NCBI RefSeq assembly: GCF_006345805.1
Contig: NW_021833619.1
Span: 1 to 57,941 of the forward strand
DNA length: 57,941 bases
DNA from: Octopus sinensis
Taxonomy: Eukaryota
Reading direction: 5' to 3'
Made by a program: the position numbers. Positions 2,818 to 4,395 of the stretch are shown here, piece by piece (within the stretch, counting starts at the first letter, position 1; the number at the start of each line of letters is the position of its first letter).

Positions 2818-4317
2818 TATATATGTATATATGTATATATGTTTTGTATGTATGTATATATGTTATAGGTATATGTATATTTATGTATATATATATATCT
2901 ATATATACATACATACATACAATATATATATATATAATATAATATATATATTTAATCAATATAGGGTGCCAAAAAATTTTGTAGAATTTTTTTGCCACCA
3001 GCGGCCTAGTGGGAAAAAATTGAATAGTCATAGACCATTTTTAAGTTCAACATCACAATCAAGGAACGGCCATAATAGGCCATTCACCCACTAGAAATAA
3101 CAGCCAAAGCTTCAACCCGCAAATAAACATCAATTCCTTAAACCAGAGAAAATTAAAAAAACATTTACCCTGTAATTTCTTATACGATGCACCGTTTCAT
3201 CTACTGTTTAATGGTAAACTAACCTGATTAAATTAAATCAAGCCAATCTTCCATAGGCCCTTAGAATCATCAGTAAGAAATAGCAAGTCGGAACGATATT
3301 TTCACGAGGCATTTCCGACCCCGCCTCGGCAATATCTGACCTAAAATTTTCAATCATCGCAACTCGCGCCAAATTTATCGGCAGCAAATAAATATAAGCC
3401 GCCGATTCCATTACGGAATTACCAGAAAATTCACAATTAATCAATATAATGAATTTGAATTTTCTGGTTAATTCCGTAATGGAATCGGCGGCTTATATTT
3501 ATTTGCTGCCGATAAATTTGGCGCGAGTGCGATGATTTGAAATTTTTAGGTCAGATATTGCCGAGGCAGGGTCGGAAATGCCTCGTGAAAATATCTGTTC
3601 CGACTTGGCTATTTCTTACTGATGATTCTAAGTGCCTATGGAAGATTGCTTGATTTAATTTAATCAGGTTATTTGCCATTAAACAGTAGATGAAACGGTG
3701 CATCGTATAAGAAATTACAGGGTAAATGTTTTTTAATTTTCTCCTGGTTTACGGAATTGATGTTTATTTGCGGTTGAAGCTTTGGCTGTTATTTCTAGTG
3801 GGTGAATGGCCTATTATGGCCGTTCCTTGATTGTGATGTTGAACTTAAAAATGGTCTATGACTATTTAATTTTTCCCACTAGGCCGCTGGTGGCAAAAAA
3901 ATTCTACAAAATTTTTGCAACCCTATATTGATTAATTATGATTTTCTGGTTAATTCCGTAATGGAATCGGCGGCTTATATTTATTTGCTGCCGATAAATT
4001 TGGCGCGAGTGCGATGATTTAAAATTTTAGGTCAGATATTGCCGAGGCAGGGTCGGAAATGCCTCGTGAAAATATCTGTTCCGACTTGGCTATTTCTTAC
4101 TGATGATTCTAAGGGCCTATGGAAGATTGGCTTGATTTAATTTAATCAGGTTAGTTTACCATTAAACAGTAGATGAAACGGTGCATCGTATAAGAAATTA
4201 CAGGGTAAATGTTTTTTAATTTTCTCCTGGTTTACGGAATTGATGTTATTTGCGGTTGAAGCTTTGGCTGTTATTTCTAGTGGGTGAATGGCCTATTATG
4301 GCCGTTCCTTGATTGTG

Positions 4318-4395
<78 letters not shown>

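What the first reader, a model, noticed from the sequence alone, without database searches (positions are those of the whole stretch)
2952..4319. Retrozyme-like ~483-nt ribozyme-bearing monomer in tandem and inverted array; predicted self-excising, possibly circular RNA
Seen: a ~483-bp non-coding unit occurs three times between (TA)n tracts. Each copy has a complete type I hammerhead core, and the two tandem copies place GUA cleavage sites at 3707 and 4190. The inverted copy also runs about 15 nt past the monomer junction (3434-3448), so the source was multimeric or circularly permuted. G-U wobbles in several helices favour the HHR strand. Known: Penelope-like element pLTRs and metazoan non-LTR retrozymes carry type I HHRs, and tandem retrozymes yield circular RNAs. 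Inference: a non-autonomous, PLE-mobilised RNA element, long for a metazoan retrozyme and highly structured.
Basis: partly seen in the sequence, partly recalled or inferred. Interest (0 to 1): 0.9.

Follow-up and report, generated by a model that had tools for sequence, protein, structure and literature searches.

The report
Hammerhead-bearing Penelope-type retroelement insertion
A small non-coding mobile element that carries a hammerhead self-cleaving RNA motif has landed in a TA repeat, leaving the inverted-plus-tandem scar typical of Penelope-like retrotransposons; this is a fresh example of a known kind of element, not a new kind.

Summary
The repeat is real. It has one inverted copy (2952-3448), one full direct copy (3449-3935) and a 384-nt partial copy (3936-4319), all between TA-rich microsatellites.

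All 3 copies carry every conserved hammerhead core base, an 8-bp helix I, and a 3-4-bp helix III with a palindromic loop. Cleavage sites fall after 3707, after 4190, and after 3183 on the minus strand. Helix II is unusual: a U.U mismatch at its base and a 66-68-nt arm. No Rfam hammerhead model matches.

A post hoc descriptor hit 5 of 300 shuffled windows. The helix II arm is stable only on the ribozyme strand (z -4.14 versus -0.72).

A diverged relative (33869-34095, about 72% identical) has no ribozyme but shares both outer ends and also sits in (TA)n. Fixed outward 3' ends, a variable head-to-head centre and a 98-100-nt one-sided "tail" match published Penelope-like element (PLE) insertions.

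Best reading: a non-autonomous, PLE-mobilised, retrozyme-like element. Self-cleavage and circular RNA remain untested. It is a new member of a known kind.

The parts
2786..2951 (.). Left flank: impure (TA)n microsatellite, taken as half of the insertion target
   Evidence: Read directly; repeat families D1/D2
2952..3448 (-). Inverted copy: one full unit plus 12-14 nt of the preceding unit's end (3435-3448). Its 3' end (terminus A) faces outward at 2952
   Evidence: blastn 95.5%; alignment
2952..3051 (-). 'Tail': 100 nt present at the left outer end and absent from the right outer end, lying between termini A and B
   Evidence: Inverted repeat I6, 3052-3117 with 4254-4319, 100% complementary and ending at the right terminus; alignment
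3175..3281 (-). Hammerhead motif of the inverted copy: CUGAUGA 3273-3267, GAAA 3198-3195, predicted cleavage after 3183
   Evidence: Descriptor scan
3449..3935 (+). Direct copy 1, full unit; carries a short duplication near its 5' end
3611..3715 (+). Hammerhead motif 1: helix I 3611-3618 with 3708-3715, CUGAUGA 3619-3625, helix II arm 3626-3691, GAAA 3692-3695, helix III and loop 3695-3706, predicted cleavage after A3707
3804..3837 (+). Hairpin B (3804-3825) followed by 12 nt ending at terminus B (3837, equivalent to 4319). Inferred to be one reverse-transcription start site
   Evidence: Alignment and pair counts, with one compensatory pair between the two elements
3889..3935 (+). Hairpin A (3889-3922) followed by 13 nt ending at terminus A (3935, equivalent to 2952 on the minus strand). 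Inferred to be the second reverse-transcription start site
3936..4319 (+). Direct copy 2, 384 nt, ending at terminus B against the microsatellite
4092..4198 (+). Hammerhead motif 2: CUGAUGA 4100-4106, GAAA 4175-4178, predicted cleavage after A4190
3708..4190 (+). 483-nt RNA that double self-cleavage would release (prediction only)
   Evidence: Distance between cleavage sites; folds
4320..4394 (.). Right flank: (TA)n(CA)n(TA)n microsatellite
33869..34095 (.). Second, diverged insertion of the same family. Left arm 33869-34020 is on the minus strand and carries an 88-nt tail (33869-33956). Right arm is about 34025-34095 on the plus strand. Same termini A and B, inside (TA)n, and without the hammerhead region
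   Evidence: blastn 72-76%; nhmmer E=1.9e-10; sequence; alignment

Best explanation
This locus is one retrotransposition product of a small (about 483 nt), non-coding, hammerhead-bearing element that uses the integration machinery of a Penelope-like element (PLE). In current terms it is a non-LTR 'retrozyme' or pLTR-derived non-autonomous PLE.

Inferred steps:
1. A longer-than-unit (multimeric or circular) RNA of the ribozyme strand is bound by a PLE RT-endonuclease made elsewhere in the genome.
2. The enzyme cuts both strands of a (TA)n tract.
3. Each DNA end primes reverse transcription at one of two fixed internal sites of the RNA. Terminus A lies 13 nt after hairpin A, and terminus B lies 12 nt after hairpin B.
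4. The two cDNAs run towards the RNA 5' end and meet head to head.

This gives two fixed outward-facing 3' ends, a variable inner junction, a partial tandem on one side, and a 98-100-nt 'tail' at one end only.

The hammerhead sits 130 nt upstream of terminus B and 228 nt upstream of terminus A, on the template strand. If the locus is transcribed, the two direct ribozymes are predicted to pair through their palindromic helix III into a double hammerhead. They would cut after 3707 and 4190 and release a 483-nt RNA, which a tRNA ligase could circularise.

Shown here: the sequence anatomy, the motif, the strand-specific helix II arm and the shared termini. Inferred: the PLE mechanism, cleavage and circularisation.

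My estimates: PLE-type origin about 0.75; the motif is a true hammerhead by descent about 0.8; it cleaves about 0.5; this locus yields a circle about 0.25.
For: Architecture:
- The locus is an inverted copy plus 1.8 direct copies between (TA)n tracts.
- A second insertion at 33869-34095, 72-76% identical, ends at the same two homologous positions. It also lies in (TA)n, but its inner junction is elsewhere, near unit position 317 instead of 1.
- So the outer ends are fixed and the centre varies, as target-primed reverse transcription from the ribozyme strand predicts.

Published descriptions that match:
- Craig et al. 2021 (PMC8557442, passages read): PLE insertions are partial tandems, often with an adjacent inverted 5'-truncated copy. 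They often carry a tail at one end only. Naiad and Hydra PLEs insert into (TA)n.
- Frangieh et al. 2024 (PMC11167929, main text read): a purified PLE protein cuts and extends both DNA strands. It starts reverse transcription at two internal RNA sites, and the tail is the sequence between them. In that element the hammerhead cut site lies 26 bp into the ORF and reverse transcription starts at 111-118 bp, that is downstream of the ribozyme.

The 3' domain is a conserved structure:
- 3 of 28 pairs in three helices changed on both sides between the two elements.
- 93.6% of cells are paired, against 35-53% when partners are slid by 1-3 columns, with no double change in any slid control.

Hammerhead:
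- The full core and three helices are present in 3 of 3 copies.
- 5 of 300 shuffles give any hit.
- Helix III plus loop 3 (12 nt) is fully self-complementary, -17.5 kcal/mol. Cervera and de la Pena 2014 list this as typical of PLE hammerheads (PMC4209133, passages).
- Two copies of the motif cofold into the double-hammerhead shape at -68.9 kcal/mol, against 2 x -29.2 for separate monomers.
- The helix II arm has z = -4.14 on the ribozyme strand and -0.72 on the other.

Other retrozyme traits: GC 36.6%, 63% paired as a circle, z = -4.82, and no ORF. A 2026 preprint ties retrozymes to PLE pLTRs (10.64898/2026.07.22.740005, abstract and Results part 1 read).
Against: - No Rfam hammerhead model matches, even at E<=10 in a 1.5-kb search.
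- Positions 10.1/11.1 are U.U instead of the highly conserved G-C (conservation stated in PMC4209133).
- Helix II is 66-68 nt long, far longer than any helix II in the passages I read.
- The motif's lowest-energy monomer fold pairs part of CUGAUGA with the 3' half of helix III. The active fold is 3.3 kcal/mol worse.
- The three copies are 94-98% identical, so the invariant core says nothing about selection.
- The only diverged relative lacks the ribozyme region.
- The descriptor was written after seeing the motif.
- The tail is 98-100 nt, against the published 30-40 bp.
- The reverse-transcription start sites are inferred from two insertions only.
- The window holds no RT or GIY-YIG ORF (longest open frame 258 aa; 10 frames scanned against Pfam, no relevant hit).
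- The monomer's z-scores hardly differ between strands.
- There are no transcript data.
- Frangieh et al. found the hammerhead dispensable for insertion in vitro and saw no reads ending at its cut site. Ribozyme function in such elements is therefore itself unsettled.
Confidence: 0.62

Rival explanations
1. PLE-derived non-autonomous element whose hammerhead is an inactive relic. The insertion mechanism is as in the best explanation, but the RNA neither self-cleaves nor forms circles.
For: U.U at the base of helix II, a 66-68-nt arm in place of a short helix II, and no Rfam match. The monomer's lowest-energy fold is an inactive conformer. Published minimal PLE hammerheads cleave poorly in vitro (PMC4209133). 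The PAc hammerhead is not needed for insertion (PMC11167929). The second insertion spread without the ribozyme region being copied.
Against: All 11 fixed core positions, A15.1-U16.1 and H17 are intact in 3 of 3 copies. The palindromic helix III and the predicted double hammerhead are preserved. An axolotl hammerhead with a U.U at the base of helix II still cleaves (22% in one hour as a monomer, more as a dimer; PMC7229834). The helix II arm is strand-specific, and in copy 1 it lost one G on each side, which keeps the arm in register.
Confidence: 0.25
2. DNA-level repeat, such as a foldback or MITE-like class II element, a Helitron-type element or a local satellite, in which the hammerhead-like motif arose by chance.
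For: Long inverted repeats and TA-rich flanks, as Tc1/mariner-type MITEs have. Another palindrome flanked by TA tracts lies at 50262-50545. No ribozyme model matches. No hammerhead covariation could be measured.
Against: The two outer ends are not inverted copies of each other: the outer 100 nt on the left has no partner at the right end. The ends show no 5'-TC or CTRR-3' on either strand (read; the Helitron end rule is recalled, not from a call). The 1.8-unit tandem and a junction-spanning inverted copy need a multimeric template. The descriptor hit only 5 of 300 shuffles. The helix II arm is stable on one strand only, which a DNA palindrome would not explain.
Confidence: 0.08
3. Assembly artefact: a fold-back chimeric read or collapsed repeat created the inverted-tandem layout.
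For: Craig et al. note that such structures cause assembly problems. The locus lies between microsatellites. Raw reads cannot be checked here.
Against: The inverted arm differs from the direct copies at about 5% of columns, including substitutions. An artefactual fold-back should be near-identical. A diverged second locus has the same layout.
Confidence: 0.03

Closest known systems
Metazoan non-LTR retrozymes (Cervera and de la Pena 2020, NAR, PMC7229834; Li et al. 2026 preprint 10.64898/2026.07.22.740005)
   Same: Non-coding AT-rich unit of a few hundred nt, repeated head to tail, with one type I hammerhead per unit. The predicted RNA is highly self-paired. A link to PLEs has been proposed.
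   Different: There are only 1.8 direct units plus an inverted one at this locus, not a long array. Helix II is a 66-68-nt arm with U.U at its base, and no loop 1-loop 2 contacts are recognisable. No Rfam hit. Expression and circles are untested.
Minimal and atypical hammerheads in PLE pseudo-LTRs (Cervera and de la Pena 2014, MBE, PMC4209133)
   Same: Type I topology, short helix III with a palindromic loop suited to dimeric action, enlarged helix II, and a location in the repeated non-coding part of a PLE-type element.
   Different: Those motifs keep G10.1-C11.1 and have a helix II of 6-8 bp and a helix I of 2-5 bp. Here 10.1/11.1 is U.U, helix I is 8 bp, and helix II carries a long extension.
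Poseidon PLE of Anolis carolinensis, PAc (Frangieh et al. 2024, Mob DNA, PMC11167929)
   Same: Both target strands are used as primers. There are two internal reverse-transcription start sites with a 'tail' between them, an AT-rich target, and a hammerhead upstream of the start sites on the template strand.
   Different: PAc is autonomous. Its tail is 30-40 bp and its start sites lie in an AC-rich stem-loop. Here the tail is 98-100 nt and each inferred start lies 12-13 nt downstream of a hairpin, in U/A-rich sequence. The mechanism here is inferred from two insertion scars only.
(TA)n-targeting PLE clades Naiad and Hydra; Neptune also has a microsatellite bias attributed to its endonuclease linker (Craig et al. 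2021, MBE, PMC8557442)
   Same: Insertion into (TA)n, complex tandem and inverted insertions, and a one-sided tail.
   Different: There is no RT or endonuclease ORF here, so the clade of the presumed helper cannot be assigned. Naiads lack canonical hammerheads, while Hydra and the other PLE clades carry them.
Axolotl HHR_Amex2 and newt satellite hammerheads (PMC7229834)
   Same: U.U mismatch at the base of helix II (Amex2), weak helix III, and better cleavage as dimers.
   Different: Those have a short capped helix II and loop-loop contacts, and they occur in very large arrays.

Membership tests
Hammerhead ribozyme, type I | Conserved core: C3 U4 G5 A6 N7 G8 A9, G12 A13 A14, A15.1-U16.1 pair, and H17 (not G) at the cleavage site | tested here: met
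   Present in 3 of 3 copies at 3619-3625/3692-3695/3706-3707, 4100-4106/4175-4178/4189-4190 and minus 3273-3267/3198-3195/3184-3183
Hammerhead ribozyme, type I | Three helices around the core, with helix I open-ended | tested here: met
   Helix I 8 bp, helix II closing stem 4 bp plus a long arm, helix III 3-4 bp
Hammerhead ribozyme, type I | G10.1-C11.1 pair at the base of helix II (highly conserved, not absolute) | tested here: not met
   U.U in all copies. There is a precedent in axolotl HHR_Amex2 (PMC7229834)
Hammerhead ribozyme, type I | Match to an Rfam hammerhead covariance model | tested here: not met
   0 hits at gathering score over the whole window. None of 33 hits at E<=10 in 2900-4400 is a hammerhead
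Hammerhead ribozyme, type I | Palindromic helix III and loop 3 allowing a dimeric ribozyme (typical of metazoan and PLE forms) | tested here: met
   The 12-nt 3695-3706 pairs with itself at 12 of 12 positions, -17.5 kcal/mol. The dimer's lowest-energy fold is the double hammerhead
Hammerhead ribozyme, type I | Core and helices conserved with compensating changes across diverged copies | tested here: inconclusive
   Only three copies, 94-98% identical. The one diverged relative lacks the region. The rest of the genome was not available
Hammerhead ribozyme, type I | Site-specific self-cleavage | not testable with these tools
   Needs in vitro transcription
Metazoan non-LTR retrozyme | Head-to-tail repeats of a short non-coding AT-rich unit, each with a type I hammerhead | tested here: met
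   1.8 direct units with two hammerheads 483 nt apart, GC 36.6%, no ORF of 110 aa or more. It is a minimal array only
Metazoan non-LTR retrozyme | Highly self-paired monomer RNA | tested here: met
   z = -4.82, 0 of 100 shuffles as stable. 63% paired as a circle. The opposite strand also gives z = -4.45
Metazoan non-LTR retrozyme | Expressed as linear and circular monomer RNA | not testable with these tools
   No transcript data
PLE-type insertion (non-autonomous PLE derivative) | Partial tandem plus adjacent inverted 5'-truncated copy, with 3' ends facing outward | tested here: met
   The same layout occurs at 33869-34095. The definition comes from PMC8557442
PLE-type insertion (non-autonomous PLE derivative) | 'Tail' at one end only, corresponding to two reverse-transcription start sites | tested here: met
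   98-100 nt in element 1 and 88 nt in element 2, at homologous positions. This is longer than the published 30-40 bp
PLE-type insertion (non-autonomous PLE derivative) | AT-rich or (TA)n target | tested here: met
   Both insertions have TA repeats on both sides
PLE-type insertion (non-autonomous PLE derivative) | Sequence relationship to the pLTR of an autonomous PLE in the same genome | not testable with these tools
   No genome or repeat library for this organism was available. The collections that might hold it are closed or prokaryotic
Autonomous Penelope-like element | ORF with a telomerase-like RT and a GIY-YIG endonuclease | tested here: not met
   Longest stop-to-stop frame in the window is 258 aa. 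10 frames were scanned against Pfam with no RT or GIY-YIG hit. Shorter degenerate fragments were not scanned
MITE / foldback / Helitron | Terminal inverted repeats with a target-site duplication, or 5'-TC...CTRR-3' ends with a 3' hairpin | tested here: not met
   The outer ends are not complementary to each other. There are no TC/CTRR ends (the rule is recalled)

The most novel reading that the evidence does not exclude
The locus records a retrozyme caught in the act. A hammerhead-bearing non-coding RNA was integrated by dual-strand target-primed reverse transcription from two hairpin-marked start sites about 100 nt apart. That would be direct structural evidence, outside vertebrates, that retrozymes are inserted by PLE enzymes from longer-than-unit templates. 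Whether those templates are linear multimers or circles cannot be told from these insertions. Its ribozyme would then be a functional hammerhead variant with a U.U base and a 66-68-nt strand-specific helix II arm. Such a variant is invisible to Rfam models, which would imply that a class of long-helix-II hammerheads is systematically missed in animal genomes.
Probability: 0.3. Interest if true: 0.6.

Novelty: new member of a known kind. Interest (0 to 1): 0.4.

Why it matters
Type I hammerheads in PLE-derived repeats and retrozymes are already known to be widespread in invertebrates, so one more family is not a surprise. Two points give this locus modest value.

First, two diverged insertions 31 kb apart share the same two outer ends. 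They give a clean genomic read-out of the "two start sites plus tail" integration mechanism. In the papers I read, that mechanism was shown biochemically for one lizard PLE (PMC11167929), and here it applies to a non-autonomous element. That bears on the open question of how retrozymes are mobilised.

Second, the ribozyme escapes every Rfam model because of its long helix II. If it is active, motif censuses built on standard models or descriptors undercount such variants.

Tried and rejected
Rfam:
- Gathering score over the whole window gave 0 hits.
- E<=10 on 2900-4400 gave 33 hits. All were generic miRNA or sRNA hairpin models on the palindromic junction 3348-3541 or on the microsatellites, and none was a ribozyme.
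- E<=10 over the whole window gave 379 hits, of which the best 150 were shown. All were microsatellite or hairpin false positives. I did not see the other 229.

My first descriptor scan demanded a pair at 10.1/11.1 and therefore missed the true motif. I relaxed it.

Search for further family members in the window: blastn, nhmmer with --max and four short conserved patterns with one mismatch. They found only 33869-34095, plus a marginal 38-nt match at 38933-38970 (E=0.035) that I treat as chance.

Whole-monomer strand comparison by z-score is uninformative (-4.82 versus -4.45).

Protein context: 55 stop-to-stop frames of 110 aa or more were listed. I scanned 10 of the 55 against Pfam and got one weak irrelevant hit (SR-25, E=0.005). 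ARAGORN found no tRNA.

A second descriptor hit at 34524/34544/34606 takes its helix I 3' strand from a SINE-like repeat that begins near 34606. I reject it as chance. A different reading of the same region is listed under things noticed.

Helitron and MITE readings are rejected on the ends (see rivals).

Not checked:
- Copy number and conservation in the rest of the genome, any autonomous PLE helper, and transcripts.
- Supplementary files, which are closed. Those of PMC8557442 (list of PLE families, including cephalopod ones), PMC4209133 and PMC7229834 (hammerhead family figures) may already show related motifs.

Literature: search (retrozyme, hammerhead, octopus; 97 papers held at least 2 of the 3 terms, 25 listed). 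Two listed papers held all three terms, and neither title is about cephalopod retrozymes. From this I claim only that these searches showed no description of such an element.

The host organism is not established. My impression that the SINE-like repeat at 34606-34780 resembles cephalopod SINEs is recall only.
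Full report
WHAT IS THERE

Between an impure (TA)n tract (2786-2951) and a (TA)n(CA)n(TA)n tract (4320-4394) lie 2.8 copies of a non-coding unit of about 483 nt:
- an inverted copy at 2952-3448;
- a full direct copy at 3449-3935;
- a direct copy at 3936-4319 that stops 98 nt short of the unit end.

blastn of the unit gives 95.5% identity to the inverted copy and 98.2% to the partial copy. 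Over the shared 380 columns the pairwise identities are 94.2, 95.5 and 98.2%. Some of the counted substitutions are indel misalignments in homopolymer runs. The inverted copy begins, in its own sense, with the last 12-14 nt of a preceding unit (3435-3448). Its template was therefore longer than one unit. No frame of 110 aa or more overlaps the locus.

THE HAMMERHEAD MOTIF

Each copy has CUGAUGA, GAAA and GUA placed so that three helices form:
- an 8-bp helix I;
- a helix II closed by four pairs;
- a helix III of three Watson-Crick pairs plus one G.U, capped by UGCA.

Predicted cleavage falls after A3707, after A4190, and after 3183 on the minus strand. All conserved core positions are canonical.

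Two features are not canonical. Positions 10.1/11.1 are U.U instead of G-C. Helix II continues through an internal loop into a long hairpin, 66-68 nt in all.

Probably for these reasons no Rfam hammerhead model matches, at gathering score or at E<=10 in a 1.5-kb search.

IS IT CHANCE?

A descriptor that accepts the motif hit 5 of 300 dinucleotide shuffles of the whole window on both strands. It hit 1 of 300 when helix I had to be 8 bp or more. The descriptor required CUGANGA; helix II of up to 100 nt with three or more closing pairs and one mismatch allowed at the base; GAAA; helix III of 3 bp or more; H17 not G; and helix I of 5 bp or more. It was written after the fact, so these numbers are generous.

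Three features outside the descriptor add weight:
1. The 12 nt of helix III plus loop 3 are fully self-complementary (12 of 12 positions, -17.5 kcal/mol). Cervera and de la Pena list this as characteristic of PLE hammerheads (PMC4209133, passages).
2. Two copies of the 107-nt motif cofold into the double-hammerhead shape, with a 12-bp intermolecular helix III and unpaired cores. The energy is -68.9 kcal/mol against 2 x -29.2 for separate monomers. The isolated monomer prefers an inactive fold and pays 3.3 kcal/mol for the active one.
3. The helix II arm is stable only on the ribozyme strand: -22.1 versus -8.6 kcal/mol, 5 G.U among 23 pairs, z -4.14 versus -0.72.

Copy 1 has four private changes, all inside this arm. 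Two of them are single-G losses, one on each side of the hairpin. The core is invariant in 3 of 3 copies, but at 94-98% identity that carries no information.

THE INSERTION SCAR, THE STRONGEST EVIDENCE

A second element at 33869-34095 is 72-76% identical to the 3' third of the unit (blastn; nhmmer E=1.9e-10). It too is a head-to-head pair of arms inside TA repeats.

Aligned with the first element, its left outer end falls at the same homologous position as 2952, which I call terminus A. In the first element that end reads ...GATTAA and then TA repeats. Its right outer end falls at the same position as 4319, terminus B, nine bases after a shared CCTT.

Its inner junction, however, lies near unit position 317, not at position 1, so it carries no ribozyme. 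In both elements the left end therefore has an extra stretch that the right end lacks: 98-100 nt in the first and 88 nt in the second.

Fixed outer ends with a variable centre are what target-primed reverse transcription gives if the RNA has the polarity of the hammerhead strand. Both outer ends are then 3' ends, and the centre is where two 5'-truncated cDNAs meet. This assigns the template polarity independently of the ribozyme motif, and the motif is on that strand.

HOW THIS COMPARES WITH PUBLISHED WORK

Craig et al. 2021 (PMC8557442; passages) describe PLE insertions as follows:
- They are partial tandems, often with an inverted 5'-truncated copy adjacent.
- A 30-40-bp tail is often present at one end only.
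- Naiad and Hydra elements prefer (TA)n.
- Canonical hammerheads are universal in Hydra and the other non-Naiad PLEs.

Frangieh et al. 2024 (PMC11167929; main text) worked with a purified Anolis PLE protein. They showed the following:
- The enzyme cuts and extends both strands of an AT-rich target.
- Reverse transcription starts at two internal RNA sites, and the tail is the stretch between them.
- The hammerhead cut site lies 26 bp into the ORF, and reverse transcription starts at 111-118 bp.

Here the cleavage site is 130 nt upstream of terminus B and 228 nt upstream of terminus A. Each terminus lies 12-13 nt after a hairpin (3804-3825 and 3889-3922).

Those hairpins, and a long-range stem enclosing hairpin B, are kept between the two elements. 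Compensating changes occur at 3 of 28 pairs. In all, 93.6% of cells are paired, against 35-53% in the slid controls, and no slid control shows a double change. With only two lineages this is suggestive, not proof. These changes (A-U to G-C) cannot tell RNA from DNA or one strand from the other.

RETROZYME TRAITS

- The unit is AT-rich (GC 36.6%) and non-coding.
- It is predicted to be highly structured: z -4.82 as a linear monomer cut at the ribozyme sites, and 63% paired as a circle.
- The opposite strand is also structured (z -4.45, 48% paired).
- Cervera and de la Pena 2020 (PMC7229834; passages) give 150-450 bp for such repeats. They also report an axolotl hammerhead with U.U at the base of helix II that cleaves weakly as a monomer and better as a dimer.
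- Li et al. 2026 (preprint; abstract and Results part 1) report retrozyme consensus lengths of 51-972 bp and relate retrozymes to PLE pLTRs. So 483 nt is not unusually long.

CONCLUSION

The best explanation is a PLE-mobilised, non-autonomous, hammerhead-bearing element, a retrozyme in the broad sense, inserted once into a (TA)n tract. A dead-on-arrival relative inserted the same way 31 kb away.

The ribozyme is very probably a true hammerhead by descent. Whether it still cleaves is open, because of the U.U base, the long helix II and the inactive monomer fold. If it does, it should act as a dimer in tandem transcripts and release the 483-nt RNA 3708-4190. Circularisation is an analogy with published retrozymes and is not shown.

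No helper RT-endonuclease gene lies in the window. Genome-wide copies, transcripts and raw reads could not be examined. The case is a new member of a known kind. Its main value is the clean two-terminus scar shared by two diverged insertions, and a hammerhead variant that standard models miss.

Noticed in passing
window 33869-34095: Short diverged relative of the element: a head-to-head pair of arms in TA repeats that shares both outer ends with the main locus and lacks the ribozyme. It is followed by (TA)n, (TCTA)n and (TG)n tracts.
   Followed up: yes
window 34516-34603: A second hammerhead-like core (CUGAUGA at 34524, GAAA at 34588, GUA at 34597-34599) whose GAAACGG...CGUA resembles the main motif. 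Helix I is only 4 bp and helix III only 2 bp. It sits directly upstream of a SINE-like repeat, so it may be a decayed relic cut off by that insertion, or chance.
   Followed up: partly
window 34606-34996; also 55551-55725 (-), 54977-55152 (-), 9365-9684 (-), 38166-38390 (-): Several copies of a SINE-like repeat with a tRNA-like head, 67-89% identical to each other. ARAGORN calls no tRNA. From memory only, it resembles cephalopod SINEs; this is unverified.
   Followed up: partly
window 50262-50545: Near-perfect palindrome of about 285 bp (arms about 135 nt) with TA-rich sequence on both sides. It is either a TA-targeting foldback/MITE or another head-to-head twin insertion of an unrelated family.
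   Followed up: no
window 33366-33385: CUGAUGA and GAAA boxes separated by only 8 nt (helix II of 2 bp). It passed only the loosest descriptor and is most likely chance.
   Followed up: no
window 51186-54737: A stretch open in several frames on both strands (frames up to 258 aa). Pfam found nothing for the four frames I scanned apart from a weak SR-25 hit. It looks like low-complexity or repeat sequence, not a gene.
   Followed up: partly
whole window: Very dense microsatellites ((TA)n, (CA)n, (TACA)n, (TCTA)n) produce hundreds of sub-threshold Rfam miRNA-model matches: 379 at E<=10, none reaching gathering score.
   Followed up: no
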